A DNA stretch of 31,778 nucleotides from a virus (Duplodnaviria; Heunggongvirae; Uroviricota; Caudoviricetes), in the IMG/VR virus record IMGVR_UViG_2671181118_000006; one strand, given 5' to 3'. A program made the translations under genes and the position numbers. Below, piece by piece: positions 4,826 through 28,436 of the stretch (positions within the stretch are counted from its first letter, which is position 1; every line of letters begins with the position of its first letter). The notes beneath the pieces are model-generated. The model was not told the origin of the DNA. It ran no database searches and saw only the letters and a list, made by a program, of their open reading frames with translations.

Positions 4826-4881
4826 GGTTTTCTCACTTCTGAATCAGGGTTAACCGGTCAGCCTGGCTGACCGGATGAAAA

Positions 4882-5400: not shown

Positions 5401-5412
5401 CGGTCAGGCTCC

Positions 5413-6603: not shown

Positions 6604-6662
6604 CCGTTTAACTCCGTGGTTAATGGGTGAGTGTTATTTTCAGTTGTGCCGGAGATGTCAGG

Positions 6663-7256: not shown

Positions 7257-7311
7257 GATGGATCCCCTGAATAAAAACCGGGGATGATGCCAGTTAGCCG
7301 TAATCTCTGCA

Positions 7312-7337
7312 TTTTCTTAAACGTTGGTTTGGGAGAA
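7312..7337. other. invertase crossover site, hix/gix/cix-like (invertase-proximal)
   Basis: TTTTCTTAAACGTTGGTTTGGGAGAA. Its reverse complement, TTCTCCCAAACC-AA-CGTTTAAGAAAA, follows the 12-2-12 layout I remember for hixL (TTCTTGAAAACCAAGGTTTTTGATAA). Inverted copy of the site at 9617-9642. Confidence 0.7.
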
Positions 7338-7781
7338 GGTGCTCCAGCTATTGGCGTTCCGTTCTTCTGGCCGTCCGCTGCAATGCCAAATACTGTAATC
7401 GATAGCTGGTCCAGTATGGTGTTTTTGAAGTTCAACGGGGCGAAATTTTCTGCCTCTGATTACCCTGTGCTGGCAAAAGTGTTTCCTTCGCTGGTATTAC
7501 CTGAAGCCCGCGGTGATTTCATTCGTATCTGGGATGATGGGCGAGGGGCGGACAGTGGGCGAGCATTATTAAGCTGGCAGGCAGCAACATCTTTATCGCA
7601 ATTTGGCGGTAATTATCCAGAAGGGTCCGGCCATGCGATTGCTGATTACGATGGAATATCAGCACACCAGCCAGGTTTCTCTCGATTTCAGTACACCAGT
7701 AACTCAGTAGGAGATGGTGTTAATTTTATTGCCGTCAGACCACGTAACATTGCATTTAACTTTCTGGTGAGGGCTAAATAA
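7326..7781 (+). CDS. alternative tail-fibre C-terminal segment (silent cassette; would fuse to the H N-terminus after inversion)
   Basis: The open frame runs through the crossover site (..VGLGEGAPAIG..), in the same frame as the GLG codons at the H crossover. There is no independent RBS; the stop at 7779-7781 overlaps the ATG of the next gene. Confidence 0.65.
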   Translation, partial: GLGEGAPAIGVPFFWPSAAMPNTVIDSWSSMVFLKFNGAKFSASDYPVLAKVFPSLVLPEARGDFIRIWDDGRGADSGRALLSWQAATSLSQFGGNYPEGSGHAIADYDGISAHQPGFSRFQYTSNSVGDGVNFIAVRPRNIAFNFLVRAK

Positions 7782-8374
7782 TGAAACCTGTTTTTGATGA
7801 AAATGGACTGGCTACAGTGCCGGGTGATATGCGTTGTTTTTATTATGATGCAGTAACGTATGAATATACGGGCTGGTCTGATGAATATATTAATACTGGT
7901 GTAAGTATGCCCGCCTGTTCCACTGGTATTGACCCTGGCGAAAACATTCCGGGAAAAGTGGCTGTATTTACAGGTAAGGGATGGAGCCATGAAGAGGACC
8001 ATCGCAATGAGACTGTTTACTCAATCGAAAATGGCGCAGCTGTTACAGTGGATTATATCGGTGCCATCAAAAACGGTTATGTCACGCTTTCACCGTTAAC
8101 GCCATATGATAAATGGGATGGTGAGAAATGGGTGACAGATACTGAGGCACAACACGGTGCCGCAGTAGAAGCGGCAGAAGCACAGCGCCAGTCACTGATT
8201 GATGCAGCAATGGCTTCCATTAGTCTGATTCAGCTGAAATTACAGGCCGGGCGGAAACTGACGCAGGCAGAAACAACCCGGCTTAACGCTGTGCTGGATT
8301 ACATTGACGCGGTGACGGCAACAGATAGCAGCACCGCGCCGGATGTCATCTGGCCTGAACTGCCGGAGGCGTAG
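7781..8374 (+). CDS. alternative tail fibre assembly protein (U'-like)
   Basis: 197 aa; its C-terminus (NAVLDYIDAVTATDSSTAPDVIWPELPEA) is paralogous to the C-terminus of the expressed assembly protein (NAWLDYLDALEMVDTSGAPDIEWPTPP). Confidence 0.8.
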   Translation: MKPVFDENGLATVPGDMRCFYYDAVTYEYTGWSDEYINTGVSMPACSTGIDPGENIPGKVAVFTGKGWSHEEDHRNETVYSIENGAAVTVDYIGAIKNGYVTLSPLTPYDKWDGEKWVTDTEAQHGAAVEAAEAQRQSLIDAAMASISLIQLKLQAGRKLTQAETTRLNAVLDYIDAVTATDSSTAPDVIWPELPEA

Positions 8375-8794: not shown

Positions 8795-10456
8795 TTATCT
8801 CCCGATTGCAATCCATCGAGCGTAAATAACGGCTGGTGATGATGTTGAATTTAATAATTTGAACTGAGTATTACTGATAGGTTGAGCTGCAAAGCTATAA
8901 GGTGCACCTGAAGCGCCAGCGTTATCATATGAAGCAACAAGCTGAACTGTACTGTAATTTGTAAAAGGTATGTGGAAATTGATTGTCTGCGGATCGCCAA
9001 TTTGACCAGAGACTGCAATACCCCACTGGATAATAGTCCCACCCGGTAAAGATGCCCAGCCGGTACCACTCGTAAAACTAGACATATCCGGTATTTGTCC
9101 AGCACCTGTACCCACATTTTTTGTTGCTGCTGTACCCAGACTGAGGCTGGAAATAGATTGAGAAACAAACTGACGGGTGGCAAGCTGTATGATGTTATTC
9201 GATGCCGAATGCCTCATGTATGGGTCTTGTTGATTGTTGGAAATAAACCCAGCCACATCACACGCATCACGTTGGATAGCGTTTATATCAGCGGGAGTGG
9301 GTTTAAATCCTGTGTGGTACAACTTATACCAGTCAGAAAATGCAGTCTGACTCGTTTTTATCCTCACACTAAAGTCAGGAATGGAACCGAGAGACGCACC
9401 GCAGATTTGCCACCCGGTTGAACCTGAGTTAGCAAATGAAATACCACCAGCCCACTGCCCAGGATAAGGACCGATATTATCTGCAGGGGCAAAATAATCA
9501 AAGCGACTGACGTCCAACGCCGCCATAGTTCCGCTTACCTGGTCTGCCTTTATCCCAAGCCCCCACCCGCCATTTAATGCAATTTTACCCGTTTTATCTG
9601 TGAAGGATGATTGCAGTGTTCCCAAACCAAGGTATGCGAGAAGACCGGCAACATCCTTCCCACTCAAATGAGTCAGCGTCTCATCCAGTGGCTGCTTACC
9701 TGACAGCGCATTGTTAATGGTGGTACTGAATTTCGGGTCATTGTTAATGGCTGCGGCAATTTCTTTCAGTGTGTCCAGCGTGTCAGGGGCACCGTTAATC
9801 AGAGCGGTAATAGCGGCCTGTACAAACGCAGTGGTCGCAATCCGCGTGGTGTTATTTCCTGCGGCAGGCGTCGGCGCTTTTGGTTCTCCGGTAAATGTCG
9901 GATTATGTTTCTGTGCATACTGGGTATGAGGATCCTGTGCGGCAATGTGGTTTCTCATCTGGTCATCCACATACAGCTTTAATTCCAGGACTTTATCATC
10001 CACGTATTTACGGGTCGCCAGTACCACCGACGGGTCGATTTTCAGCGTGATGGCTTCGGTATTCGTGACAACCAGAATCATGCGGATAGTCTGGGTACGA
10101 CCACTGCCTTCCTGCAACTGCGGTTTGTACGTTTCCGGGCAGTTCGCCACCGCAATGAGTACGCCTTCATCATCATAAAGCCCAATCTCACGGATCCAGA
10201 ATCCGCCCTCGTTCTCAGGGATGATTTGCTCCGCAATAATCTGGCTCTGGTTGTTCGGGTCAACACTCAGAAGATTCAGCGGCGCGATGCGTTTCTGGTT
10301 AATCAGTTTTGTCTGTGCCGGGTCTGGTGTCGGCAAGACACCATTCGCATCACCAACGGCCATTTGCGTCAGATTCAGCTTACTGCCGAGCATCGTCGCG
10401 TTAGCCAGCCGTGCTGCGCCCTGATTAGTCAGAATGGCGTAGTATTTCACTGTCAT
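8795..10456 (-). CDS. H: tail fibre protein H (constant N-terminus plus currently expressed variable C-terminus)
   Basis: 553 aa; N-terminus MTVKYYAILTNQGAARLA...MAVGDANG resembles the P2 H / Mu S N-terminus; crossover site at about codon 275. Confidence 0.9.
   Translation of the reverse strand: MTVKYYAILTNQGAARLANATMLGSKLNLTQMAVGDANGVLPTPDPAQTKLINQKRIAPLNLLSVDPNNQSQIIAEQIIPENEGGFWIREIGLYDDEGVLIAVANCPETYKPQLQEGSGRTQTIRMILVVTNTEAITLKIDPSVVLATRKYVDDKVLELKLYVDDQMRNHIAAQDPHTQYAQKHNPTFTGEPKAPTPAAGNNTTRIATTAFVQAAITALINGAPDTLDTLKEIAAAINNDPKFSTTINNALSGKQPLDETLTHLSGKDVAGLLAYLGLGTLQSSFTDKTGKIALNGGWGLGIKADQVSGTMAALDVSRFDYFAPADNIGPYPGQWAGGISFANSGSTGWQICGASLGSIPDFSVRIKTSQTAFSDWYKLYHTGFKPTPADINAIQRDACDVAGFISNNQQDPYMRHSASNNIIQLATRQFVSQSISSLSLGTAATKNVGTGAGQIPDMSSFTSGTGWASLPGGTIIQWGIAVSGQIGDPQTINFHIPFTNYSTVQLVASYDNAGASGAPYSFAAQPISNTQFKLLNSTSSPAVIYARWIAIGR
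9617..9642. other. invertase crossover site, hix/gix/cix-like (inside tail fibre gene H)
   Basis: TGTTCCCAAACC-AA-GGTATGCGAGAA, inverted relative to the 7312-7337 site and sharing the (T)TCCCAAACC half-site. Lies in frame inside H at about codon 275, encoding ...LAYLGLGT... Confidence 0.7.
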
Positions 10457-11064
10457 GCGTTTACTCTCAGGTTATCAATTAAATGAATGGCCGAGGCCGG
10501 GAAATAATCCCCTCCGACAATAATGGCCTCCGGGGTGTAGGGATAAACCGTCAGGGCGTCACCGTGATAGCATCCCGCACCGGCAAAAATGTTGCCGGTT
10601 GTACTTAAACTGATAGCCAGTCCCGTCAGATGGCGGCTCGCCGGTTTTGCATCAGCAACGAGGCGCTCCAGCTCCTGATACATTTCTTCGGTAATACCCT
10701 GCTCAAGCACGCCAACAACGATACGGAACGTCCCCGGCTCCTCGTTGAGCTGCCACCACTCCCTTACCTCAATCAGATAGCCGAGCGGCTCCACCACACG
10801 CCGGATTGCGCCTATAGTGCCCTTATGGCAGTGAATGAAATACGCATCGCGGATAACAGCGCGTTTTGTCGCTTCCGGCCATTTATCATCCCAGCGGTCA
10901 ACCGAAAATGACCACGCCAGCCACGGCAGCAGATTTGCCGGGCAGGTGTCCGGGTTCCACAGCTCACGAATACTGACCGGCGTTTTTTCAATTTCCGCAC
11001 AGGCTTTTGCGGCGGCAACTTCAAGCGGTGATGAGCCGGTCGGCAGCAGTCGCGAATCACTCAT
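10453..11064 (-). CDS. I: baseplate assembly protein I
   Basis: 203 aa; synteny between H and J; stop/start overlap with H. Confidence 0.85.
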   Translation of the reverse strand: MSDSRLLPTGSSPLEVAAAKACAEIEKTPVSIRELWNPDTCPANLLPWLAWSFSVDRWDDKWPEATKRAVIRDAYFIHCHKGTIGAIRRVVEPLGYLIEVREWWQLNEEPGTFRIVVGVLEQGITEEMYQELERLVADAKPASRHLTGLAISLSTTGNIFAGAGCYHGDALTVYPYTPEAIIVGGDYFPASAIHLIDNLRVNA

Positions 11065-11965
11065 CCGAGCCTCCGGTCACGACGCTGTATTCGGTACAGA
11101 AAGACGCCTGCGTATTGTTGAGCACGATGTCGGCCAGTGGTGCAGCCAGTTCGACACGCTGCACGCCTTCAACATGCAAAGCGGCATAAATGGCAGACAG
11201 ACGGATGTCGCGCCCCAGCCGGTGCTGTGCCGTGATGTACGCTTCCAGTTTTTTCACGGCGGCAGCACGGATGGGTTCGCTTTCGGGGCCAGGGTAAAGG
11301 TAAAGCGTGGCGTTTATCTGGTATTCAACGATGGCGGCAGACTGCACGGTCACGCGGTCGGCCACTGGCCTGACGTCCTCGCCATTAAGGGCGTTACGCA
11401 CCACGGCCAGCAGGTCTTCGGATGCAACACCGTTATTTTCACGTGACAGCACAGAGATGGTGACGCAGGCCGGAGACGGACTGGTGACAGAGATATCTGC
11501 GACGCGCCCGTCGGCACTGCGACCATGATACTGATAGGCTCCCACCGACCCGGCGACGCTTAAACCTTCAAACGCCTGCTGAATACGCAGACGATAATCG
11601 GTGTCAGACTCCATCACTGCCGGTGTCGGCGGGATGGTCGAATCATCTGCCGGGGTGATAGTCAGGCGCGTGGTGTTGTAATTGGCACCAATCACATCAA
11701 GGTCATTACCGGCGGCACAGGCCAGCATCACCGCCCGTGCGGCCTCATTCACACGCTGACGCCAGATAAGCTCACGATAAGCATTTTCCTCCAGCAGCTT
11801 GACGAGAGGCTCGGATTCCAGCGTCAGGGTACGGGCGACCGCCTCCTGCTGGTCTTCCGGGTAAAGGGAAATCAGTGTCGCCTTGCGTTCGGCGAGAATG
11901 GTTTCAAAGTCCAGCTCCTCGACCACATCCGGTGCGGGTAGCTGGTTCAGGTCGATAATCGGCAT
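11057..11965 (-). CDS. J: baseplate protein J
   Basis: 302 aa, same length as P2 gpJ. Confidence 0.9.
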   Translation of the reverse strand: MPIIDLNQLPAPDVVEELDFETILAERKATLISLYPEDQQEAVARTLTLESEPLVKLLEENAYRELIWRQRVNEAARAVMLACAAGNDLDVIGANYNTTRLTITPADDSTIPPTPAVMESDTDYRLRIQQAFEGLSVAGSVGAYQYHGRSADGRVADISVTSPSPACVTISVLSRENNGVASEDLLAVVRNALNGEDVRPVADRVTVQSAAIVEYQINATLYLYPGPESEPIRAAAVKKLEAYITAQHRLGRDIRLSAIYAALHVEGVQRVELAAPLADIVLNNTQASFCTEYSVVTGGSDE

Positions 11966-11969
11966 GGTT

Positions 11970-12317
11970 TCAACTCACAGGGATGGTTAACGAAAGTGGC
12001 TGGCCGGTGTCGTTGTGCTGGCCGGTTAACGTGACCGTCATTCGCCCGTCAAAACTGCGCGCCGTAGTGACGGATGACAGGGTGACGCGGGGTTCCCATT
12101 TCAGCACCGCCATGTAACAGGCGACCTTAATCTGCAACTCAAGCGCCTGGGTCTGCGGCTGGTCAATCATTGATGCCAGCAACGAGCCGTAATCACGACG
12201 CATCACCCGTGAGCCGACCGGTGTGCGCAGGATATCGCCGATACTCTGGCTGATATGCTCAAGGTCAGTGACAGTCAGGCCATCACTGCGATTCATTCCG
12301 AGATAACGTGCTGTCAT
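11970..12317 (-). CDS. W: baseplate wedge protein W
   Basis: 115 aa, same length as P2 gpW. Confidence 0.9.
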   Translation of the reverse strand: MTARYLGMNRSDGLTVTDLEHISQSIGDILRTPVGSRVMRRDYGSLLASMIDQPQTQALELQIKVACYMAVLKWEPRVTLSSVTTARSFDGRMTVTLTGQHNDTGQPLSLTIPVS

Positions 12318-12949
12318 AGAGGACTCCCGGTTGTGCCGCCGCTGTCTCCTGGGTGTTTGTGGGTATGCAGTACCTTACCGTTTGATGAGAGTTCACCGCC
12401 GGTGTGTTCAATGTTGCCGCGCATCGTCCCGCCCTTCTGCACTTCCAGCGTGCCGGTAATCAGCCTGTTGGTGCAGACCACCTCCGGTGTGTCCAGGGTG
12501 ACGCGGGTTGATGCTTTCACCATGACCACCGGCACCGTGGCAGTAACAGAATCAGAAGCCGTCACGCTGACCGTTTTAATTCCGCTTACCGTGAGTGCAC
12601 TGGTTTCGGGTTCATATTCAATCACCGCCCCGTCAGGGAAACGGATATGCAGGGCATCCGCCGACGCAGACGGCGCGGGGTTATCGCCGGAATAAATCCC
12701 CGGCAGAACGAACGCCGTGTCGAGTTCACCGCCCACGGCCAGAATCAGCACCTGTTCACCCACGGAAGGTGCCCACCATGTGCGCGAACGTCCTGCGCGA
12801 TGGGTCAGCCACTGAAGCCAGTCGGTGCACATGCCGCCGGTCTGCACACGGCAGCGACCGGCGTTAAGGTCGGTTTCGACGATAATGCCGGTGCGGATCA
12901 TGTTGCGCAGTGCGCGCGCGAGTTCCTGAATATTTGCGAGAGTGTTCAT
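12314..12949 (-). CDS. V: baseplate spike protein V
   Basis: 211 aa, same length as P2 gpV. Confidence 0.9.
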   Translation of the reverse strand: MNTLANIQELARALRNMIRTGIIVETDLNAGRCRVQTGGMCTDWLQWLTHRAGRSRTWWAPSVGEQVLILAVGGELDTAFVLPGIYSGDNPAPSASADALHIRFPDGAVIEYEPETSALTVSGIKTVSVTASDSVTATVPVVMVKASTRVTLDTPEVVCTNRLITGTLEVQKGGTMRGNIEHTGGELSSNGKVLHTHKHPGDSGGTTGSPL

Positions 12950-13015
12950 AACGGGAAGGATGCCGCCGGGTCATACCGGCGGCAATGTGACGATGAGGTG
13001 TCGGGAATGGCACAA

Positions 13016-13468
13016 CTAACGGTCGAGGTGAGCCAGAATAATCTCTTCAATCATCTGCACATCCTCACTGGTAAAGCCGAGCAGGGGACGCGCCGGATAA
13101 TCAATTTTCTTACCGTCTTTCCGGTTTTCTTCCGACAGACCGAACTGATGCACGCTGGCGATTTTCGGTGACTTCCCGCCGTAAAACTCCATTGATGCCT
13201 GTTCCGGGCTGGCGCGGATATGCAAAAAACGACTGGTGATAAGTTTCGCAAACATTTTTCGCTTAACACGACCAGTCTTTTTTCTGGCGCTCTGCTGCTG
13301 GCGTGGCGCGTAGGGTGTGCCGTCCGGGGCTTTCTGAGCCATCACCCGACGCTGCTGACTCTGCCGCAGACGTTTCGCCAGTTCGGCGCTCAGTCGCCGA
13401 CGCCCTGACGGTGACAGCGATTCAATCAGTCCGGTCAGCCGGTCTTCAAAACGCTTAAACTCATTCAT
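13016..13468 (-). CDS. S: tail completion protein S
   Basis: 150 aa, same length as P2 gpS. Confidence 0.9.
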   Translation of the reverse strand: MNEFKRFEDRLTGLIESLSPSGRRRLSAELAKRLRQSQQRRVMAQKAPDGTPYAPRQQQSARKKTGRVKRKMFAKLITSRFLHIRASPEQASMEFYGGKSPKIASVHQFGLSEENRKDGKKIDYPARPLLGFTSEDVQMIEEIILAHLDR

Positions 13469-13928
13469 CCCACTTGCTCACCAGTTCGCCATTGATATAA
13501 AGCTCCACCGGGCGGGTGACCGGCTCCGGCGGCGTGGGTTCCGGGATATTCTTCACATGCAGTGCGCCGTCCACCTCACTGACCAGCGTGCGCTCGGTCA
13601 GCATCAGGCTGATGCTGATATCAAAGCTGCTGTCATTGTTGATGTCTGCATAAAACGTGAAGCCCTTTTTCTGGCCTGCGTCGGTGGTCATGATGTCGGG
13701 CTGATTCTCCCGCAGCCACGCCAGCACCGGCACAATGAGCAGGTCAAAATCACCGGTAAAGTCGGTCACAATCACATTGAGCGTGTAACGCTTTTCGAAT
13801 GACAGCGACGTCGCCAGTGTGGAGGCAATACTCCCGTTATCCACGAATATCCGCAGCATCTCGGGGTTAGTTTTCAGCACCGTGACGGCATCAGTCAGCG
13901 CCCTGCGCAGGCTGTCGGGTTTGAGCAT
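13461..13928 (-). CDS. R: tail completion protein R
   Basis: 155 aa, same length as P2 gpR. Confidence 0.9.
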   Translation of the reverse strand: MLKPDSLRRALTDAVTVLKTNPEMLRIFVDNGSIASTLATSLSFEKRYTLNVIVTDFTGDFDLLIVPVLAWLRENQPDIMTTDAGQKKGFTFYADINNDSSFDISISLMLTERTLVSEVDGALHVKNIPEPTPPEPVTRPVELYINGELVSKWDE

Positions 13929-19216: not shown

Positions 19217-19389
19217 TGTCAGGAGTCCTGAATAGTGATTAGAGGAGTCACATGTCGGCATCAGTTTCCCGACGATGCGCATCCTCCGCCATCAGTCCCG
19301 GATGGCTTATCACTGACACAACAGCACCTTAGCGAATCGCGGGGCGCGACTCAGTAGCCTTGCCGTGTATTCATCACGGCGAGGTATTC

Positions 19390-21162
19390 ATGACCATCAC
19401 CACAGACACCACTCTTTTACACGACCCGCGTCGTCAGGCGGCGCTGCTGTACTGGCAGGGGTTTTCCGTGCCGCAGATTGCCGCCATGTTGCAGATGAAA
19501 CGCCCGACGGTGCAGAGCTGGAAACAGCGCGACGGCTGGGACAGCGTTGCCCCCATCAGCCGTGTCGAAATGAGTCTGGAAGCGCGGCTGACCCAGCTCA
19601 TCATCAAACCGCAGAAAACCGGCGGTGACTTCAAGGAAATTGATCTGCTCGGACGCCAGATTGAACGACTGGCACGGGTCAACCGTTACAGTCAGACCGG
19701 CAACGAGGCAGACCTTAATCCGAACGTCGCTAACCGCAACAAAGGCGGGCGTCGCAAACCGAAAAAGAATTTTTTCAGTGACGAGGCCATCGAAAAGCTG
19801 GAGCAGATTTTCTTTGAGCAGTCTTTCGACTATCAGTTGCACTGGTATCGCGCCGGGCTTGAGCACCGCATCCGCGATATCCTGAAATCCCGCCAGATTG
19901 GCGCGACGTTTTATTTTTCCCGCGAGGCGCTGCTGCGCGCCCTGAAAACCGGCCATAACCAGATTTTTCTGTCGGCCAGTAAAACGCAGGCGTATGTGTT
20001 CCGCGAATACATCATCGCCTTTGCCCGTCTGGTTGACGTTGACCTGACCGGTGACCCGATTGTCCTGGGCAATAACGGCGCAAAACTGATTTTTCTCGGC
20101 ACCAACTCCAACACCGCACAGAGCCATAACGGTGACCTGTACGTCGACGAGATTTTCTGGATCCCGAATTTTCAGGTACTGCGTAAGGTGGCATCAGGTA
20201 TGGCCTCACAGAGTCACCTGCGCTCTACCTATTTCTCCACCCCGTCCACGCTGGCGCACGACGCCTACCCGTTCTGGTCGGGTGAACTGTTCAACCGGGG
20301 ACGCGCCAGCGCCGCCGAACGTGTGGAAATCGACGTCAGTCATAACGCCCTTGCCGGTGGGCTTCTCTGTGCGGACGGCCAGTGGCGGCAGATTGTCACC
20401 ATTGAGGACGCCCTGAAAGGTGGCTGCACGCTGTTCGACATTGAGCAGCTTAAACGCGAAAACAGCGCCGACGATTTTAAAAACCTGTTCATGTGTGAAT
20501 TTGTTGACGACAAGGCGTCGGTGTTCCCGTTCGAGGAGCTGCAACGCTGCATGGTCGACACGCTGGAAGAATGGGAAGACTATGCGCCGTTTGCCGCGAA
20601 TCCGTTCGGCTCCCGCCCGGTCTGGATTGGTTACGACCCGTCACACCGTGGCGACAGCGCCGGATGCGTGGTACTGGCACCGCCGGTAGTGGCCGGAGGC
20701 AAATTCAGAATACTTGAGCGTCACCAGTGGAAAGGCATGGACTTTGCCACCCAGGCTGAATCCATCCGCAAACTCACCGAAAAATATAACGTCGAATACA
20801 TCGGTATTGATGCCACCGGCCTCGGTGTCGGCGTGTTCCAGCTCGTGCGCTCGTTCTATCCCGCCGCGCGCGATATCCGCTACACACCGGAAATGAAAAC
20901 CGCAATGGTGCTCAAGGCAAAAGACGTTATCCGTCGTGGCTGTCTGGAATATGACGTCAGCGCCACCGACATCACCAGCTCGTTTATGGCTATCCGCAAG
21001 ACCATGACCAGCAGCGGACGCAGCGCCACCTATGAGGCCAGCCGCAGCGAGGAAGCCAGCCACGCCGACCTCGCCTGGGCGACCATGCACGCCCTGTTAA
21101 ATGAGCCACTCACCGCCGGTATCAGCACCCCGCTGACATCCACCATTCTGGAGTTTTACTGA
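19390..21162 (+). CDS. P: terminase large (ATPase) subunit P
   Basis: 590 aa from the ATG at 19390, which is preceded by GAGG; same length as P2 gpP; divergent from O. Confidence 0.9.
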   Translation: MTITTDTTLLHDPRRQAALLYWQGFSVPQIAAMLQMKRPTVQSWKQRDGWDSVAPISRVEMSLEARLTQLIIKPQKTGGDFKEIDLLGRQIERLARVNRYSQTGNEADLNPNVANRNKGGRRKPKKNFFSDEAIEKLEQIFFEQSFDYQLHWYRAGLEHRIRDILKSRQIGATFYFSREALLRALKTGHNQIFLSASKTQAYVFREYIIAFARLVDVDLTGDPIVLGNNGAKLIFLGTNSNTAQSHNGDLYVDEIFWIPNFQVLRKVASGMASQSHLRSTYFSTPSTLAHDAYPFWSGELFNRGRASAAERVEIDVSHNALAGGLLCADGQWRQIVTIEDALKGGCTLFDIEQLKRENSADDFKNLFMCEFVDDKASVFPFEELQRCMVDTLEEWEDYAPFAANPFGSRPVWIGYDPSHRGDSAGCVVLAPPVVAGGKFRILERHQWKGMDFATQAESIRKLTEKYNVEYIGIDATGLGVGVFQLVRSFYPAARDIRYTPEMKTAMVLKAKDVIRRGCLEYDVSATDITSSFMAIRKTMTSSGRSATYEASRSEEASHADLAWATMHALLNEPLTAGISTPLTSTILEFY

Positions 21163-22196
21163 TGAGCAAGAAAAAAGGGAAAACACCGCAACCTGCGGCA
21201 AAAAAAATGACTGCCAGCGCCCCGAAAATGGAGGCATTCACCTTTGGTGAGCCGGTGCCGGTACTCGACCGCCGTGACATTCTGGATTACGTCGAGTGCA
21301 TCAGTAACGACAGATGGTATGAGCCACCGGTCAGCTTTACCGGTCTGGCAAAAAGCCTGCGTGCTGCCGTACATCACAGCTCACCGATTTACGTCAAACG
21401 CAATATTCTGGCTTCAACGTTTATTCCGCACCCGTGGCTTTCCCAGCAGGATTTCAGCCGCTTTGTGCTGGATTTTCTGGTGTTCGGTAATGCGTTTCTG
21501 GAAAAGCGATACAGCACCACCGGTAAGGTCATCAGACTGGAAACCTCACCGGCAAAATATACCCGCCGTGGCGTGGAGGAGGATGTTTACTGGTGGGTGC
21601 CGTCCTTCAACGAGCCGACAGCCTTCGCGCCCGGCTCCGTGTTTCATCTGCTGGAGCCGGATATTAATCAGGAGCTGTACGGCCTGCCGGAATATCTCAG
21701 CGCCCTTAACTCTGCCTGGCTGAATGAGTCGGCCACGCTGTTTCGCCGCAAGTATTACGAAAACGGCGCACATGCCGGATACATCATGTACGTCACTGAT
21801 GCCGTACAGGATCGCAACGATATCGAAATGCTCCGCGAAAACATGGTGAAGTCGAAAGGCCGCAACAACTTTAAAAATCTGTTTCTCTATGCCCCACAGG
21901 GGAAAGCCGACGGCATTAAAATTATCCCGCTCAGTGAAGTCGCAACGAAGGACGATTTTTTTAATATCAAAAAAGCCAGCGCCACTGATCTGCTGGACGC
22001 GCACCGCATCCCCTTTCAGTTGATGGGCGGCAAGCCGGAGAACGTCGGGTCGCTGGGTGATATTGAGAAAGTGGCAAAAGTCTTTGTCCGCAATGAGCTT
22101 ATCCCGCTACAGGACAGGATCCGCGAGATAAACGGCTGGCTCGGTCAGGAGGTCATCCGCTTTAAAAACTACTCACTGGACACTGACAACGGCTGA
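21162..22196 (+). CDS. Q: portal protein Q
   Basis: 344 aa, same length as P2 gpQ; start overlaps the P stop (TGATG). Confidence 0.9.
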   Translation: MSKKKGKTPQPAAKKMTASAPKMEAFTFGEPVPVLDRRDILDYVECISNDRWYEPPVSFTGLAKSLRAAVHHSSPIYVKRNILASTFIPHPWLSQQDFSRFVLDFLVFGNAFLEKRYSTTGKVIRLETSPAKYTRRGVEEDVYWWVPSFNEPTAFAPGSVFHLLEPDINQELYGLPEYLSALNSAWLNESATLFRRKYYENGAHAGYIMYVTDAVQDRNDIEMLRENMVKSKGRNNFKNLFLYAPQGKADGIKIIPLSEVATKDDFFNIKKASATDLLDAHRIPFQLMGGKPENVGSLGDIEKVAKVFVRNELIPLQDRIREINGWLGQEVIRFKNYSLDTDNG

Positions 22197-22201
22197 ACAT
22201 C

Positions 22202-22223
22202 GCCGCCTGCGGGCGGCTTTTTT
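22202..22223 (+). terminator. rho-independent terminator of the P-Q operon
   Basis: GCCGCC-TGCG-GGCGGC hairpin followed by TTTTTT, immediately after the Q stop. Confidence 0.8.
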
Positions 22224-22358
22224 ACAACCCGTCATCACGGCCTCACACGCTCACCACCGCACAAAACACCCCGCAGACACACCAACGCCCCGGCAGGCCG
22301 ACTAAATGCCATCACGACGCGCTCAGACGCAAAAAAACTGTCACTACCACGCCGTTAC

Positions 22359-22383
22359 GTTGGCCACATAAAATGTGGCCAAC
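22359..22383. repeat. perfect 10-bp-stem inverted repeat at the cargo boundary (putative terminator or insertion scar)
   Basis: GTTGGCCACA-taaaa-TGTGGCCAAC, 6 nt downstream of the stop of the 22389-23375 ORF on the minus strand; no adjacent T-run. Confidence 0.5.
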
Positions 22384-22388
22384 TCCAG

Positions 22389-23375
22389 TTATAATAATTT
22401 GTCCAGCCTAGCTGAAACAATACCTAGAACAACTGTTGAAACTATATTTACCACCACTCTTAAAATACTCTTCTTTCGCTTCTTACTATATTCATCATAC
22501 AACCTCTCATCACCCTTATTTAATACAATGTACGATGCTGGAGTATAACCATCAATTAATCTCTCTAGGCCTTCACCTAAATGCTCCGCTAACAATGGGA
22601 TAATAGAAAACGCACCAAGAAAGAGCATTAAAAATTTTACTAACCTTTCTTTATCACCAATATCAATATATTCACCAACATTGTACAGTGCATAACTTAA
22701 AATCAATATAGAAAAAGAAAACCGCATAATCAGTGGGATTAAATACGATATCCTTTGAGCTTGCTGTATCAATGGTATTTTGTTTGTAACTCTTTGACAT
22801 CCTTCAACCCATTCTTTAAATGCTTCGATAAAACCTCTAGCCACTACATAATCAGCATATTCAACAACTATTTCTGCTGAACTGGTGAGCATGAATGCAA
22901 CAAAACGCCCCCTAATGAAAGGTGGTGCATCTTCTTCCATTTCTTTCTGCATAGCAATTCTTGATGCTAATTTAACAGTAACTTCATAGTGGTTAGGTAA
23001 TGATGCCCCTGTCGATAAAATTGCAAAGTTATATTTTAAAATTACACTAATTGTTGGACTACTTCCCGCACTACTCGACATTGCAAACTTATCAAAAGAG
23101 GTAAACTGTTCCTTTCTATCTTTTGAATGTAAAATAGTTACCGTTTCATTTTTCGATATAATATTATGAACATCACACAATTGATTTATTTTTTGATGAA
23201 CGCTTCTTATCTCATCGATATTTATAAGTAAATTCTCAGAGGTTCTCTGCCTTATTGTTTCTGTTGTTCCCGTTATATGTTGATAAATTTGCTGATAAAT
23301 ACGAATGCTAGTATTAATATCCCGAGAAGCAGGTAACCCACTATTAATCCCATTATTTTTTTTCATTTGACTCAT
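22389..23375 (-). CDS. hypothetical protein with a soluble N-terminal domain and three C-terminal transmembrane helices (cargo; candidate phage-defence or exclusion effector)
   Basis: Roughly 328-codon ORF in AT-rich DNA, where long ORFs are unlikely by chance. ATG candidates at 23373-23375 and 23364-23366; the track start at 23378 is a TTG. Hydrophobic segments ISYLIPLIMRFSFSILILSYALY, LVKFLMLFLGAFSIIPLLA and ILRVVVNIVSTVVLGIVSA. No family recognised. Confidence 0.7.
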   Translation of the reverse strand: MSQMKKNNGINSGLPASRDINTSIRIYQQIYQHITGTTETIRQRTSENLLINIDEIRSVHQKINQLCDVHNIISKNETVTILHSKDRKEQFTSFDKFAMSSSAGSSPTISVILKYNFAILSTGASLPNHYEVTVKLASRIAMQKEMEEDAPPFIRGRFVAFMLTSSAEIVVEYADYVVARGFIEAFKEWVEGCQRVTNKIPLIQQAQRISYLIPLIMRFSFSILILSYALYNVGEYIDIGDKERLVKFLMLFLGAFSIIPLLAEHLGEGLERLIDGYTPASYIVLNKGDERLYDEYSKKRKKSILRVVVNIVSTVVLGIVSARLDKLL

Positions 23376-23637
23376 CAATTATAACACTCATTTTATTTCC
23401 TATAAAAACTTAACCAGCAAATTAAACAAAAAGAACACAAGGTTATTATTTAGCGTGCAACAACACGATTGCACAACCAAATGCCACGTGTACGAATCTA
23501 ACCATTCTCTTATATTAAATCAAGTCAATACAACCTAATAGACACATTTTTTTATCGCAGTTATACACTTGGTTAACAATATGCGGATAGTTACTCAAAT
23601 CAAATTACATATATGACAAAATGAACAATTGCGCGCA

Positions 23638-23656
23638 GTGCTTTCCCCGCCTCGCC
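23638..23656. other. cos cohesive-end site (P2-type 19-nt)
   Basis: GTGCTTTCCCCGCCTCGCC is the reverse complement of GGCGAGGCGGGGAAAGCAC, which I recall as the P2 19-nt cohesive end. Position between Q and the A-side accessory region is as expected. Confidence 0.75.
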
Positions 23657-23862
23657 CGCCCGCTTCATGGGGCGGTTTTAATGCAGTTGCATGACCACTC
23701 AACTAGCGCGCCAGTCCTGATGTCGCCAGGCAGTTATTGTTCTCTGACTTGCGTGCGCTTCGATGCAGAGTAATGCACTTCCTGAATTGCTCGCATTCGC
23801 ATCGTTATCATGATAGAAAACAGGTAGTTATTTGTGCGCAACTTAAGAAGAAATCACTAATT

Positions 23863-25407
23863 ATGAAAAAGATTTATGAATTAACTACTGGTAGAGCGCT
23901 TAAGTATTTTCTGCAGCATGATTCATACACTACTCTGGAGCTACCCAGTTATGTCGATTTTTCTTCCTTGCTTGAAGAAATCAACTCCGCGATAGATGAA
24001 GGTAAAATCAACTTCCAACCTGACTCCAAGTCATTGATGGGGAAGAATATAAATTACGAGGTTTTAGTCAGCAAAGATGGCTTATATAGCTGGCGACGAA
24101 TAACACTAATTAATCCTCTGTACTACGTGTATTTTTGTAAACTTATTACATCCTCTTCCAACTGGAATGCTATAAGGAATAAATTTAGAGAGTTTGAGTC
24201 TAATGATCTTTTTTTATGCTCAAGTATCCCAGTGAGCAAAAAGAACACCTCAAACGTAGCTGCATCTGTTTTAAACTGGTGGGAAGATTTTGAACAAAAA
24301 AGTCTTTCATTGGCTCTTGAGTATGAGTTCATGTTCAGCACAGATATTTCAAACTTCTACCCTTCTATTTACACTCATAGCTTTGAATGGGTATTCATCT
24401 CAAAAGAAGAGGCCAAAAAGAAAGAAAATAACAATAACCCAGGACGATTGATTGACACTCATATCCAGATGATGATGAGTAATCAGACAAACGGAATACC
24501 ATTGGGTAGTACGTTGATGGATACATTTGCCGAATTAATTTTAGGCGAAATTGATTTACAGCTAAGAAAAAAAACCGAAGAGCAAAAAATAACGGATTAC
24601 AAAGTAGTTCGCTACAGAGATGATTATCGAATATTTTCAAGCAGTAAAGATGATTTGGACAAAATCTCAAAGTGTTTGGTTGAGGTCTTAGGTGAGTTTG
24701 GGCTTGATTTAAACTCAAGAAAAACAGAACTACATGACGACATCATTCTTCACTCCCTTAAATCAGCAAAAAAAGAATATATTATAGAAGGGTCGTTCAA
24801 CTCCCTACAGAAAATGTTGTATGCAATATATTTATTTTCTTTAAAACATCAAAACTCCAAAATTACAGTCAGATATTTAAATGATTTCTTGCGGAAATTA
24901 TTTAGGAAGAAAAAGATCACAAATAGTGGGCATCAACTAGATGCAATGCTTGGAATTATTTCAAGCATCATGGCTAAAAACCCAACCACCTACCCAGTGG
25001 GAATGGCTATTTTCGCAAAACTCTTGACCTTCCTTTATGACGACGATGAACTCAAATTTGGCAAGTTACAACAACTTCATTGTAAACTAGGTAAACAACC
25101 AAATACTGAAATGTTAGATATTTGGTTTCAACGAGTTCAAGGGAAGATACACACACAATGGGAAGGCGATTACAAAACAGCCCTATGTCAACGCATAAAT
25201 GATGAACTCAAGGAAAAAAAAACATTTACCATTGATGGCCTGTGGGATGTAGAGTGGATTCCGGGTTCAGCCAAAAATAAAAACAAACAGAAAATACTAT
25301 CAATTTTGAAAAAAACAAAAATTGTGGATTTAGATGCATTCGAAGAAATGGATACTGATATTACACCAGAAGAAGTGAACTTATTCGACAAGGAACACAG
25401 CGCTTAA
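23863..25407 (+). CDS. reverse transcriptase, Abi-P2-like (UG/Abi class) defence-associated RT
   Basis: 514 aa from the ATG at 23863 (the track ORF begins further upstream at 23737). RT motifs readable in the translation: FSTDISNFYPSIYTHSF (motif A-like), NGIPLGSTLMDTFAELILGEID (motif B-like), VVRYRDDYRIFSS (Y-x-DD catalytic motif C), GLDLNSRKTEL (motif D/E-like). The C-terminal 200 aa or so is helical and unassigned. AT-rich; occupies the tin/old slot between cos and A. Confidence 0.85.
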   Translation: MKKIYELTTGRALKYFLQHDSYTTLELPSYVDFSSLLEEINSAIDEGKINFQPDSKSLMGKNINYEVLVSKDGLYSWRRITLINPLYYVYFCKLITSSSNWNAIRNKFREFESNDLFLCSSIPVSKKNTSNVAASVLNWWEDFEQKSLSLALEYEFMFSTDISNFYPSIYTHSFEWVFISKEEAKKKENNNNPGRLIDTHIQMMMSNQTNGIPLGSTLMDTFAELILGEIDLQLRKKTEEQKITDYKVVRYRDDYRIFSSSKDDLDKISKCLVEVLGEFGLDLNSRKTELHDDIILHSLKSAKKEYIIEGSFNSLQKMLYAIYLFSLKHQNSKITVRYLNDFLRKLFRKKKITNSGHQLDAMLGIISSIMAKNPTTYPVGMAIFAKLLTFLYDDDELKFGKLQQLHCKLGKQPNTEMLDIWFQRVQGKIHTQWEGDYKTALCQRINDELKEKKTFTIDGLWDVEWIPGSAKNKNKQKILSILKKTKIVDLDAFEEMDTDITPEEVNLFDKEHSA

Positions 25408-25894: not shown

Positions 25895-28171
25895 TTATAT
25901 GTTTGTTGAGAATCCCGGCCACTCATCAGCAGCCAGATACGTGAATTGTTTCCCGTCATAATTTACGGTTGCCCCACGCGCCAGCGCCTCAAGCTCCCAT
26001 CGCTGGGGCAAGATTCCATTCTGAGCAAGGTCAACGCGGATACGGGTGATTTGCAATCGTTCCGACCGGCTCAGTCTGGCCGATGGTGCAATTTCATGTG
26101 GTTTTAACGGGCTTCCGTTTCTTTGCTGACGGTTTGGCGTTCTCAGCCCGTGTTTTAATGCGCCCCTGAGTGCCTTCACGACCTCCGGCTCATTCCATTC
26201 GATAATACCGTCATCAACCAGATTAAGCACTGCTGCGGCGTGCTCAGAAGGTGTGGGAGCCGGTAACGAAGTATCACCACCGGTGAGCTTTCCACAGTTA
26301 TTGACAGGACTCCGAGGCGCGGCGATGCCGCTTTTTAAAGTTAAAGGCTCCACGACCGGAACTTTCGGAACAATGCGCCAGTCCGTCGTTCTGGTGATAT
26401 GAATATGACGCGCGCCGAGATGCGGCGCGTAAATGCCGACCACTCTCTCGACTTCTTCCTCGTACTCGTTAACTTCATCCGACGGGCTACGGGCGACTCT
26501 GACAGTCTGGCAATCGCGCGGAACATTTGCCCCACCCTGCGCACTGATATACAACGCAAAATCGCCACTGTCTGCGGCAGCGCGTGCAGCCTCGACGCGT
26601 TCGTCAAACTCATCAGCAATGCTGACGCCGCGAGGCAATTTGCGTAGTTCACGGTAAGCCCCCATTGTCGGCAGACCAACCGTTTTAAATTGCGGGATGC
26701 GCCACGTTGACGCCCATGCAGTAACAGCCGCGGCAGTATCTTTCAGAGGTCTGCCGGTATCGTTATCGAGCTGACCATCCAGTGCATAGCCGTCGATATT
26801 TTTTGAAATGTATTTCGCGATATATCCCGCAGCACCGCCCCGGTTAAGGTGCTTTGCCTGAAAACGGTTTCGCGCGGCTCCTCTTTCGTCACCATCCTCT
26901 TTGAGCGCATAGCGACGCATGATTTCGATAATCTGATTACGCTGGCGTGGATTACAAAAAAGCATCATATGCCAGTGCGGCGTTCCGTCGTGGTGTGGCT
27001 CGACGACACGCAAACCGTAGACCTGTAAATCATTATCCTTGAATGCCGTGCGCATCAGGCTCCAGATGCGGCAGAGATAACGCTGCGCATCCTTTGGATT
27101 AAATGCCTCATCGTTCCAGCCGTGATTTAGCTGGACGGTTTTACTTTCGCCTTTTCCGACCTGACGTGTCGGGTGATACTTTGACGGCGCGGTCAGCGTG
27201 ATAAACATCCCCACATCACCCTCTGCGGCGGCGTAACGCTCAATACCGGCAATGGTGTTCATCAGCTCCATCCGGCGAATTTCAGGATTAGAAATACTTC
27301 CCATCACCTTACTGATAAGGTCGATGCGCTCGCCGGTTTCCCTGTTTTCAAGGTCACACGATTTAAGAAATTCCAGATTTGCCTGGCGGCGCGCACGCAC
27401 ATCACGAATGGCATGTTTACTGGCATAAGGAGAACGGTCTTTATTGACCTCCCCGACAGCAATCAGTAACGCTTCATGCCAGCGCATACGTTGACCTTTA
27501 AGCTGATGAGTCCACCAGTCATCGTTAAACAGGCGGGCAATGGCAGAATATGCCTGCCTCGTGGTCATCTGTCCTTTACGGTATTTTTTCCAGTAAAGCG
27601 GGGAAATATTGAAAGCACGTGCAGCGCCAGCAACATGACCATACAGGTGAGCCTGCGCCTCATCCGTAAACAGCGATTCTTTTTCACCATGCGCATCAAC
27701 CCATGCATCGCAGAGTTCCTCATACATCATGAAAAGCTGCGATGAGATACGGGCGGCAAACTTTTTCAGCTCCTTGTCATTCATTCCAGGCAGGCGCGCA
27801 TAGTGGCCACGCTCTGCCAAAAACAGCAACGACGCGTCGGTGTTCATTTCATGGCGCTGATTCACGCGCTCAATGCGCGGCCATAAACGACGCTGAAAAG
27901 TGGATGTGAGGAAATAAAACCCGTGCACCGGGCTTTTATTGCGCCGGATGTAGTCATAGCGTGAAGTAAACAGCGAACGCAAAAAGTAAGGCAGGCGGTT
28001 AATCGTGGATAAAACACCTTGCACCTGACGCATCTCGTCACGTGTAAGGGGTCTTTCGCGCCCGACGGCCTCGCGTGGCGCGTTCCATGCATAAGCACCG
28101 GTAAACGTCTTACCGGTGCCTGCGGCAAATGCTGACGGAGGGACAAAACGCCCGGAGACTTTAACGGCCAT
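25895..28171 (-). CDS. A: replication initiation endonuclease A (rolling-circle Rep)
   Basis: About 758 aa from the ATG at 28169-28171 (MAVKVSGRFVPPSAFAAGTGK...); the track ORF has a TTG-initiated extension. Contains HxH (PHWHMM) and a conserved Tyr region (YIAKYISKN). Size and position match P2 gpA. Confidence 0.9.
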   Translation of the reverse strand: MAVKVSGRFVPPSAFAAGTGKTFTGAYAWNAPREAVGRERPLTRDEMRQVQGVLSTINRLPYFLRSLFTSRYDYIRRNKSPVHGFYFLTSTFQRRLWPRIERVNQRHEMNTDASLLFLAERGHYARLPGMNDKELKKFAARISSQLFMMYEELCDAWVDAHGEKESLFTDEAQAHLYGHVAGAARAFNISPLYWKKYRKGQMTTRQAYSAIARLFNDDWWTHQLKGQRMRWHEALLIAVGEVNKDRSPYASKHAIRDVRARRQANLEFLKSCDLENRETGERIDLISKVMGSISNPEIRRMELMNTIAGIERYAAAEGDVGMFITLTAPSKYHPTRQVGKGESKTVQLNHGWNDEAFNPKDAQRYLCRIWSLMRTAFKDNDLQVYGLRVVEPHHDGTPHWHMMLFCNPRQRNQIIEIMRRYALKEDGDERGAARNRFQAKHLNRGGAAGYIAKYISKNIDGYALDGQLDNDTGRPLKDTAAAVTAWASTWRIPQFKTVGLPTMGAYRELRKLPRGVSIADEFDERVEAARAAADSGDFALYISAQGGANVPRDCQTVRVARSPSDEVNEYEEEVERVVGIYAPHLGARHIHITRTTDWRIVPKVPVVEPLTLKSGIAAPRSPVNNCGKLTGGDTSLPAPTPSEHAAAVLNLVDDGIIEWNEPEVVKALRGALKHGLRTPNRQQRNGSPLKPHEIAPSARLSRSERLQITRIRVDLAQNGILPQRWELEALARGATVNYDGKQFTYLAADEWPGFSTNI

Positions 28172-28436
28172 GTGAGCCAAAAGCCTCTGAACAACGCTTG
28201 CTGAGTTGCTCAACCTGCGCGTTTAAATCAGCAAAAGATTTTGCGCTTCCGGTCATAATATCGTGATGCATCAGGCCGGAAACGAGCTGGCTTAATTTCG
28301 GGTAATAACCAACCACCGCCAGCCATTCCTGACCGGCGTTTTTACCGCTTTCAGCTCTCTTTTTCTCGTGGAGAATAAACTGAAAGCTGTCACTGGTAAC
28401 GACATAACGTTCGCCAATTTCAATACGAATACTCAT
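28161..28436 (-). CDS. early-operon hypothetical protein (orf83-like)
   Basis: 91 aa; tightly packed between the zinc-finger ORF and A, overlapping the A start. Confidence 0.7.
   Translation of the reverse strand: MSIRIEIGERYVVTSDSFQFILHEKKRAESGKNAGQEWLAVVGYYPKLSQLVSGLMHHDIMTGSAKSFADLNAQVEQLSKRCSEAFGSHGR

What the first reader, a model, noticed from the sequence alone, without database searches (positions are those of the whole stretch)
22338..23630. Roughly 1.3-kb AT-rich cargo insertion between the Q terminator and cos, encoding an unassigned 328-aa membrane protein
From memory, the P2 left end has only about 130 bp between cos and the Q stop. Here the sequence on both sides matches that remembered P2 sequence, and about 1.29 kb of AT-rich DNA sits in between, ending roughly 26 bp from the cohesive end. 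It carries one gene (22389-23375, minus) with an N-terminal soluble domain of about 200 aa and three C-terminal TM helices, its own upstream AT-rich region, and a perfect hairpin just after its stop. A single membrane-anchored protein in a prophage accessory slot is the typical architecture of abortive-infection or superinfection-exclusion effectors, but I recognise no motif. This is the most likely undescribed system in the window. The nearness to cos also raises the question of whether packaging still works.
Basis: partly seen in the sequence, partly recalled or inferred. Interest (0 to 1): 0.8.

Follow-up and report, generated by a model that had tools for sequence, protein, structure and literature searches.

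The report
Orphan membrane-protein cassette beside P2 cos
A P2-like prophage carries, on the unusual (portal) side of its DNA-packaging site, a foreign AT-rich single-gene cassette. It encodes an inner-membrane protein from a large, completely unannotated family. This is a reasonable but untested candidate for a new phage-exclusion protein, and the copy in this window is frameshifted at its 5' end.

Summary
About 1.27-1.29 kb of 33% GC DNA (22338/22358-23630) replaces a 21-bp spacer between the Q terminator and the conserved cos core. It ends 7 bp before the 19-nt cohesive-end sequence. It holds one gene, an upstream AT-rich region and a perfect 11-bp hairpin.

The gene is a member of a widespread ~331-aa family (about 1000 clusters at 50% identity). 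It has a cytoplasmic alpha+beta domain followed by three TM helices. Pfam, NCBIfam, PADLOC, PHROGs and PDB sequences give no match.

Its native form is 333 aa. The window allele has an A8 run where all intact copies have A7, so the true start yields only 12 codons and the "328-aa ORF" is the out-of-frame remainder.

The cassette sits in the known gpA-gpQ cos hotspot of P2-like phages, but on the rarely used Q side: 10 E. coli genomes carry it against 1531 with an empty junction. Homologues at 42-60% identity occupy the same slot in Klebsiella, Serratia, Yersinia, Pantoea and two unassigned P2-like elements (L037, L051). It assorts independently of the AbiP2 reverse transcriptase across cos.

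A defence or exclusion role is plausible from context and untested. Packaging is probably unaffected.

The parts
22202..22225 (+). Intrinsic terminator of the portal gene Q (GC stem plus T-run). This is the left flank, conserved with P2-like phages; it is context, not cargo.
   Evidence: Terminator scan. Homology to phages 9W and KC618326 runs through 22337.
22338..22358 (.). Left junction zone. BLAST homology to P2-like phages ends at 22337. A degenerate remnant of the 21-bp P2 spacer is recognisable to about 22357.
   Evidence: direct sequence comparison.
22359..22383 (-). Perfect 11-bp hairpin with a 3-nt loop, starting 5 nt after the stop codon. It is probably a transcript-end or stabilising structure between the convergent cargo gene and Q. 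It is not a canonical terminator, because the U-run lies about 22 nt downstream.
   Evidence: the repeat finder I4. RNA fold: centroid -18.2 kcal/mol, z = -3.0. Not flagged by the terminator scan.
22389..23375 (-). The 328-aa ORF as it stands in this window. It has a cytoplasmic alpha+beta domain (about aa 19-200) and three TM helices (209-231, 246-266, 303-325). A conserved cytoplasmic loop (family consensus SYLxLNKGDE; ASYIVLNKGDE in this window) lies between TM2 and TM3.
   Evidence: AF2: pLDDT 78, pTM 0.67. Family alignment with 32 invariant columns.
23353..23391 (-). Native start region: ATG 23391-23389 followed by a 12-codon stub ending at TAA 23355-23353. The stub arises from an A8 homopolymer (23356-23363) where intact alleles have A7. 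With A7 the frame continues into the 333-aa protein (MSVIIDESNEKNNG...).
   Evidence: The family N-terminal consensus MSxIIE..D matches the A7 frame only.
23392..23630 (-). AT-rich (30% GC) upstream region of the cassette, holding the AGGA Shine-Dalgarno-like motif (23398-23401) and presumably the promoter. It is identical in strain CFSAN061761.
   Evidence: The only sigma-70-like match on this strand (23406-23378) overlaps the native start codon, so the real promoter is not identified.
23631..23694 (.). Conserved cos core, including the 19-nt cohesive-end sequence at 23638-23656. This is the right flank and recombination anchor, not cargo.
   Evidence: 100% identical to phage 9W. Overhang located. 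The same core is the only part matched in cos-only (presumed P4-like) places (query 259/260-323).

Best explanation
Shown:
- The region is a horizontally acquired, self-contained single-gene cassette: upstream region, gene and hairpin.
- It lies in the cos-proximal accessory hotspot of a P2-like prophage, on the rarely used portal (Q) side of cos.
- It was exchanged by recombination that uses the conserved cos core as one anchor.
- Its product belongs to a large unannotated proteobacterial family.
- The allele in this window carries a +1 A frameshift at codon 12. This copy makes either nothing, an N-terminally altered 325-328-aa protein, or small amounts of near-native protein by slippage on the A8 run.

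Inferred from sequence and model:
- The N-terminal 200-aa alpha+beta domain and the conserved TM2-TM3 loop face the cytoplasm.
- Three long helices cross the inner membrane.

Inferred from context only:
- The protein is expressed from the prophage and acts alone as a phage-exclusion protein.
- The cytoplasmic domain senses an infection cue and the helical bundle then compromises the membrane (abortive infection). Less likely, it blocks incoming DNA at the membrane.
For: Cassette and slot:
- Exact junctions against P2-like phages; 33% against 56% GC.
- 1531 genomes have the empty junction, 10 have this insert.

Independence from the neighbour. The same gene (>=99% identical) is paired across cos with seven different arrangements:
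- AbiP2 RT (window and HKUOPY1)
- a DUF7380 protein
- an AAA ATPase
- a HEPN protein
- two different sets of hypothetical proteins
- nothing annotated
.

Recurrence in the same slot:
- Homologues at 42-60% identity lie on the Q side of cos in P2-like elements of Klebsiella, Serratia, Yersinia, Pantoea, a metagenome and IMG/VR proviruses.
- Six of seven lineages are transcribed away from cos and convergent with Q.

Other accessory contexts:
- A lambdoid element of Shewanella has a 29%-identical homologue between the early-left genes and cI/cro, next to CHAT, HNH and DUF2326 genes.
- Acidovorax: next to an integrase.
- Limnohabitans: an island with Fic, NERD, an HsdM fragment and BrnT/A.

Stands alone. 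No neighbour family recurs across 16 non-P2 loci, and the architecture is uniform (~330 aa) over 999 cluster representatives.

Prior. [quoted passage not shown] Six of 8 unknown P4 hotspot loci protected (bioRxiv 10.64898/2026.02.27.708500).

Frameshift.
Against: - No experiment addresses function.
- No similarity to any PADLOC v2 model, and no PHROG.
- Outside prophages many copies sit alone between housekeeping genes: fatty-acid oxidation, nitrate reductase, xseA.
- Among 123 neighbours in non-P2 loci, defence-type hits were few: UvrD-like x2, SoFic x2, NERD x2, mad2 x3.
- The 40% identity across orders is higher than usual for fast-evolving immunity genes.
- No sequenced phage genome in 50,697 records carries a homologue.
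- The window allele is frameshifted, and another copy is IS1-disrupted.
Confidence: 0.45

Rival explanations
1. Superinfection-exclusion protein. It would be made constitutively in the lysogen and sit in the inner membrane, where it blocks genome entry of incoming phages (as P22 SieA or T4 Imm do) rather than killing the cell.
For: It is a prophage-borne inner-membrane protein with its own upstream region, transcribed independently of the late operon. It recurs at the same position in several P2-like lineages.
Against: Most family members lie outside prophages as lone chromosomal genes in Beta- and Gammaproteobacteria. The large, strongly conserved cytoplasmic domain (32 invariant columns) is not what known small, phage-specific Sie proteins look like (own knowledge).
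Confidence: 0.15
2. A non-defence 'moron' or selfish orphan gene. It would be a membrane protein with a host-physiology role (stress, transport regulation, envelope homeostasis) or a mildly toxic addiction-type gene that merely hitch-hikes in permissive slots such as Q-cos.
For: Lone insertions between housekeeping genes. Weak defence enrichment among neighbours. High sequence conservation. Absent from sequenced phage genomes.
Against: It recurs in accessory or immunity slots of two unrelated temperate-phage types (P2-like, and lambdoid next to CHAT/HNH/DUF2326). The distribution is patchy and strain-variable (10 of 5426 E. coli genomes). The composition is foreign.
Confidence: 0.3
3. In this particular window the gene is simply a decaying pseudogene. 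The A7-to-A8 frameshift inactivated it, and nothing functional is made from 22389-23391.
For: Every intact copy examined, and the IS1-disrupted H9 copy, has A7 and the 333-aa frame. Only the window lineage has A8: L034-L036 and L048, whose protein is 100% identical over all 328 residues. The conserved N-terminal motif MSxIIE is lost. ATG 23375 has no Shine-Dalgarno motif. Another copy is disrupted by IS1.
Against: The frameshift is at codon 12, and in-frame ATGs at 23375 and 23366 leave 98% of the protein intact, including every invariant residue. The rest of the ORF shows no further damage (99% identity to intact alleles). Slippage on an A8 run, by RNA polymerase or a +1 ribosomal shift at AAA-AAA-TAA, could restore the frame at a low level (own knowledge, untested).
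Confidence: 0.5
4. The membrane protein is the effector partner of the adjacent AbiP2 reverse transcriptase, forming a two-gene system that straddles cos.
For: They are adjacent: the RT is at 23863-25407, 470 bp from the gene start. Some DRT systems use TM effectors (PMC9122126).
Against: The gene occurs with six other arrangements across cos and without any RT. AbiP2 is described as a stand-alone multi-domain protein (PMC9226505). The two genes are divergent and separated by cos.
Confidence: 0.03

Closest known systems
Cargo of the gpA-gpQ cos-proximal hotspot of P2-like phages (old, tin, AbiP2, and the systems of Rousset et al. 2022, PMC9122126)
   Same: It lies in the same inter-core-gene interval next to cos, has foreign AT-rich composition and varies between strains. 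It swaps as a module with cos as a conserved anchor. The protein accession WP_083583072 already appears in that paper's Table S5 as 'hypothetical'.
   Different: It lies on the Q side of cos. The classical cargo (old, tin; AbiP2 in this window) lies on the A side, and the Q-cos junction is empty in 1531 E. coli genomes. It has no homology to any validated system, and its peptide was not found in the tables of tested systems.
Single-protein or TM-effector abortive-infection systems (for example lambda RexB, or the TM effectors of CBASS, Thoeris and retron systems as summarised in PMC9122126)
   Same: It is prophage-encoded and anchored in the inner membrane by a few helices. A cytoplasmic domain is available for sensing.
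   Different: It has no sequence or profile similarity. No partner sensor or signal-generating enzyme is present. The phenotype is unknown.
Superinfection-exclusion membrane proteins (P22 SieA, PMC10883804; T4 Imm)
   Same: It is an inner-membrane protein encoded by a temperate phage outside the core operons.
   Different: The family is mostly chromosomal and widespread, and much more conserved. It has a 200-aa structured cytoplasmic domain.
CorA-type membrane proteins (Mg2+ channel; CRISPR-associated CorA effectors)
   Same: The overall layout is an N-terminal cytoplasmic alpha/beta domain followed by long helices entering the membrane. CorA is the weak top Foldseek hit (E = 1e-3), and one member gave a PADLOC CorA hit at E = 0.08.
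   Different: TM-scores are 0.12. This protein has three TM helices rather than two.

Membership tests
P2-like cos-proximal (gpA-gpQ) accessory hotspot cargo | Located between replication gene A and portal gene Q, adjacent to cos | tested here: met
   Q 21162-22196, cassette 22338-23630, cos 23638-23656, gpA 25895-28213. Hotspot definition from PMC9122126.
P2-like cos-proximal (gpA-gpQ) accessory hotspot cargo | Variable presence among otherwise collinear P2-like phages | tested here: met
   The insert is absent from all 99 matching phage records and present in 10 of 5426 E. coli genomes. The empty junction is found in 1531 genomes.
P2-like cos-proximal (gpA-gpQ) accessory hotspot cargo | Confers anti-phage activity | not testable with these tools
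   Needs cloning and phage challenge. Not found in the tables of tested systems of PMC9122126.
Known anti-phage defence protein families (PADLOC-DB v2.0.0) | Significant HMM match to a defence-system model | tested here: not met
   0 families for the window protein. Among 40 family members only isolated hits at E >= 0.013. The library dates from 2023, so newer systems are not covered.
Membrane-acting abortive-infection or exclusion effector | Integral inner-membrane protein with a cytoplasmic domain | tested here: met
   Three hydrophobic segments. A KKRKK stretch precedes TM3, and an acidic short loop lies between TM1 and TM2. The AF2 model has three long helices.
Membrane-acting abortive-infection or exclusion effector | Genomic association with defence islands or prophage accessory slots | tested here: inconclusive
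   Strong for P2-like slots (seven lineages) and one lambdoid immunity-region cluster. Weak for 16 non-prophage loci.
Membrane-acting abortive-infection or exclusion effector | Infection-dependent growth arrest, membrane depolarisation, or a block of DNA entry | not testable with these tools
   Experimental.
AbiP2 / DRT multi-gene system | Conserved co-occurrence with the reverse transcriptase | tested here: not met
   Of the nine E. coli arrangements inspected (window plus 8 complete genomes), only the window and HKUOPY1 have the RT. The others have different or no cargo.
CorA-like channel | Profile or fold similarity to CorA | tested here: not met
   Foldseek TM-score 0.12. hhalign probability 0.7%.
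Transposon or IS insertion | Terminal inverted repeats, target-site duplication, transposase | tested here: not met
   No flanking direct or inverted repeats at the junctions. The gene under study is the only long ORF; four short ORFs of 41-57 aa overlap it.

The most novel reading that the evidence does not exclude
The ~331-aa family is a new, widespread single-protein membrane immunity system of Proteobacteria. Enterobacterial P2-like phages keep it in a dedicated second cargo slot on the portal side of cos. Its KA1/TBP-like cytoplasmic domain would directly sense a phage cue and gate a three-helix membrane module. The A7/A8 tract at codon 12 would act as an on/off switch for a costly gene.
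Probability: 0.3. Interest if true: 0.65.

Novelty: new member of a known kind. Interest (0 to 1): 0.48.

Why it matters
If the family protects against phages, it would add a compact one-gene membrane system with no resemblance to known ones. It is present in about 1000 sequence clusters, including Klebsiella, Yersinia, Serratia, Vibrio and Shewanella, and current defence annotation tools would miss it.

It would also show that the P2 cos hotspot has two independently exchanging halves, one on each side of a 64-bp cos core. That refines how cargo is swapped in these phages.

If it is not defensive, it is still a well-delimited, highly conserved orphan family worth a Pfam entry.

Tried and rejected
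- **Sequence libraries.** Pfam, NCBIfam, PADLOC and PHROGs were searched with the single protein and with 40 members. Nothing reached significance; a PF13033 DUF3894 hit scored 18.6 bits against a cut-off of 25 and was ignored.
- **Solved structures by sequence.** A profile against PDB sequences gave 0 hits at E <= 10.
- **AFDB search.** Foldseek against afdb50 was not available.
- **Partner of AbiP2.** Rejected by independent assortment.
- **Conserved neighbouring gene or antitoxin.** None recurs. The 40-aa ORF scan lists no other ORF on the gene's strand in the upstream region.
- **Transposon origin.** No terminal repeats or target duplication.
- **Non-coding RNA.** No Rfam family anywhere in the window.
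- **Fusion architectures.** One 548-aa relative (P0230) has an N-terminal extension with no Pfam domain.
- **Literature.** Searches by accession found nothing.

Full report
**1. What is in the sequence**

The window is a P2-like prophage. Terminase P (19360-21162) and portal Q (21162-22196) read rightwards and end in a GC-stem/T-run terminator at 22202-22225.

From about 22340 to 23630 the GC content drops to 0.33. P+Q are at 0.556 and the following 64 bp at 0.64.

BLAST against two P2-like phage records (9W, L002; KC618326, L003) shows collinearity up to 22337 and again from 23631. Those phages have only 21 bp in between. Direct comparison suggests that a degraded remnant of this spacer persists to about 22357.

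The 19-nt P2 cohesive-end sequence lies at 23638-23656.

No direct or inverted repeats flank the insert and there is no transposase. This argues for cassette exchange by recombination rather than transposition.

**2. The gene, and a correction to it**

ORF 22389-23375(-) encodes 328 aa. It is not a chance ORF:
- 197 database proteins match it end to end, typically 331 aa long and 40-60% identical.
- A profile search of 1.84 billion cluster representatives finds 999 relatives (665 at E <= 1e-10). Almost all are 320-345 aa with the same layout.
- A second subfamily occurs in marine Gammaproteobacteria such as Vibrio, Shewanella and Alteromonas.

Every named member is called 'hypothetical'.

The closest E. 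coli proteins are 333 aa and start MSVIIDESNEKNNG. This fits the family N-terminal consensus MSxIIE..D.

Aligning the window with strain CFSAN061761 shows a single difference in the 300 bp around the start. The window has an A8 run (23356-23363) where the other strain has A7. Every intact complete-genome copy examined, and the IS1-disrupted copy in strain H9, has A7. The A8 allele is seen in the window and in loci L034-L036. The IMG/VR provirus L048 encodes a protein 100% identical to the window's over all 328 residues.

In the window, the native ATG (23391-23389, preceded by AGGA at 23398-23401) therefore runs into TAA after 12 codons.

Whether this copy is dead, makes an N-terminally altered protein, or is rescued at low level by slippage on the A run cannot be decided here.

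**3. Protein anatomy**

Hydropathy gives three segments, 209-231, 246-266 and 303-325. The loop after TM1 is short and acidic, and a KKRKK stretch precedes TM3. This fits an N-in topology, with the first ~200 residues and the conserved TM2-TM3 loop (family consensus SYLxLNKGDE) in the cytoplasm.

AlphaFold2 with a 40-sequence alignment gives pLDDT 78 and pTM 0.67: an alpha+beta domain followed by three 34-41-residue helices. The N-domain modelled alone gives pLDDT 81.

Thirty-two columns are invariant across 40 diverse members. Many are charged or aromatic residues of the soluble domain: Y27, Q28, E39, H60, K62, R87, K88, D175, R180, W189.

The searches gave no functional lead:
- There is no hit in Pfam, NCBIfam, PADLOC, PHROGs or PDB sequences.
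- Full-length searches return non-specific helical bundles or a spurious CorA match. hhalign rejects CorA at 0.7% probability.

**4. Context in E. coli**

The cassette (>=99% identical) is in 10 of 5426 complete E. coli genomes, always at this position. By contrast, 1531 genomes have the contiguous, empty Q-cos junction, and none of 99 matching phage records has an insert there.

Across cos, the same gene is paired with seven different arrangements:
- the AbiP2 reverse transcriptase (window and HKUOPY1)
- a DUF7380 protein
- a 783-aa AAA ATPase
- a HEPN protein
- two different sets of hypothetical proteins
- nothing annotated

The gene is therefore an independent module, not a partner of the RT. 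AbiP2 is in any case described as a stand-alone protein (PMC9226505). One copy is disrupted by IS1.

**5. Context elsewhere**

Homologues at 42-60% identity sit in P2-like elements of:
- Klebsiella pneumoniae
- Serratia marcescens
- Yersinia enterocolitica
- Pantoea dispersa, beside a remnant of Q in a decayed prophage
- a metagenomic contig
- IMG/VR proviruses

Locating the cos overhang in each shows that the gene is on the Q side of cos in all of them. In six of seven lineages it is transcribed away from cos and convergent with Q, starting 85-445 bp from cos. The Yersinia copy is inverted and shares the slot with an AAA_15/AAA_21 ATPase.

A 29%-identical homologue lies in a lambdoid element of Shewanella putrefaciens. 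It sits between the early-left genes and cI/cro, next to CHAT, HNH and DUF2326 genes. That is a classic immunity-region accessory cluster.

Other copies are:
- next to an integrase in Acidovorax
- in a Limnohabitans island with Fic, NERD, an HsdM fragment and BrnT/A
- flanked by HerA-like (DUF87/HerA_C) and UvrD-type genes in Shewanella baltica
- alone between housekeeping genes

Across 16 non-P2 loci no neighbouring family recurs. Defence-type hits among 123 neighbours are sparse.

**6. Relation to what is known**

The interval between gpA and gpQ around cos is the published defence hotspot of P2-like phages. [quoted passage not shown]

A 2026 preprint reports that 19% of P2 elements carry only unknown genes at their main defence loci. 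It also reports that 6 of 8 randomly chosen unknown P4 loci protected against phages.

This very protein (WP_083583072) is listed in Table S5 of the 2022 paper as 'hypothetical + hypothetical' together with the DUF7380 protein. Its peptide was not found in the tables of tested systems that are held.

The slot is therefore known and the protein is catalogued, but it is unnamed and untested. What my analysis adds:
- The cargo lies on the normally empty Q side.
- The two sides of cos exchange independently.
- The family is large, uniform and repeatedly tied to this sub-slot.
- The window allele is frameshifted.

**7. Packaging**

The 64 bp at 23631-23694 are 100% identical to phage 9W. The Yersinia and Serratia elements resume similarity at 23629-23632.

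The many cos-only matches in E. coli cover only query positions 259/260-323, which equal window 23630-23694. I infer these to be P4-like satellites, which share a core cos signal with P2 (PMC9122126).

The cargo therefore begins at the outer edge of the shared cos core, and packaging is probably intact. This is an inference, because no sequenced virion genome carries the gene.

**8. Most likely function**

The following together make a stand-alone phage-exclusion role the best single hypothesis (about 0.45 for any anti-phage role):
- a strain-variable, foreign, self-contained gene in accessory slots of two temperate-phage types
- a membrane anchor plus a conserved cytoplasmic domain
- no partner gene
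- the high prior for unknown cargo in this hotspot

A sensor-coupled membrane-damaging (abortive infection) mechanism is favoured over entry exclusion. The reason is that the family is widespread outside phages and has a large conserved cytoplasmic domain.

The main rival is a non-defensive orphan membrane protein that merely tolerates these slots (about 0.3). Separately, this window's copy may be non-functional whatever the family does (about 0.5).

**9. Verdict**

This is a new, unannotated family in a known kind of locus, and a good but unexceptional candidate for experimental testing.

Limits of this analysis:
- PADLOC dates from 2023.
- The AFDB fold library was unavailable.
- Table S5 of PMC9122126 is held truncated.
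- Context sampling outside Enterobacterales is modest.

Noticed in passing
window 23863-25407 (+): The cargo on the other (gpA) side of cos is a full-length AbiP2-type abortive-infection reverse transcriptase (PADLOC AbiP2 E = 1e-160; YRDD motif; PHROG 12132). The A-Q hotspot of this prophage therefore carries two independent cassettes, one on each side of cos.
   Followed up: partly
window 23356-23363 (A8 run on the minus strand): A homopolymer length difference (A8 here, A7 in every intact copy examined) frameshifts the cargo gene at codon 12. The A8 allele is found in L034-L036, and L048 encodes the identical 328-aa protein. It could be a simple inactivating mutation or a slippage-dependent expression switch.
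   Followed up: partly
window 23455-23474: A palindrome GTGCAA-N8-TTGCAC lies in the AT-rich upstream region of the cargo gene. It looks like an operator but is short enough to be chance. The true promoter was not identified: the only sigma-70-like match (23406-23378) overlaps the native start codon.
   Followed up: no
L039 (E. coli H9, NZ_CP195976.1) 4791-6330: An IS1A element interrupts the same gene in this strain, leaving a 263-aa annotated fragment. This is a second independent inactivation of the cassette among few carriers.
   Followed up: no
L005/L052 (Yersinia enterocolitica P2-like prophage) 5728-7548: A 606-aa AAA_15/AAA_21 (OLD/PARIS-type) ATPase also lies on the Q side of cos, next to the family homologue. 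The homologue is inverted relative to all other lineages. The Q-side slot can therefore hold more than one cargo gene.
   Followed up: no
L042 (Shewanella putrefaciens CP080634.1) 8983-13830: A record deposited as a 43-kb 'plasmid' carries a lambdoid-like region with integrase, cI/cro and replication protein P genes. Its immunity-region cluster holds a 29%-identical homologue followed by CHAT-domain, HNH-endonuclease and DUF2326 genes, which looks like a small defence island.
   Followed up: partly
L008 (Limnohabitans) 7106-7903: A DUF6602 protein sits 98 bp upstream of the homologue in the same orientation, in an island with Fic, NERD, an HsdM_N fragment and BrnT/BrnA. DUF6602 did not recur next to other family members.
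   Followed up: partly
window 23631-23694 versus cos-only matches: The left edge of the cos sequence found in cos-only places of E. coli genomes (presumed P4-like satellites, not checked) coincides to within 1-2 bp with the right junction of the cargo. The same holds for the resumption of similarity in the Yersinia and Serratia elements. This suggests a sharply defined functional cos boundary that doubles as a recombination anchor.
   Followed up: partly
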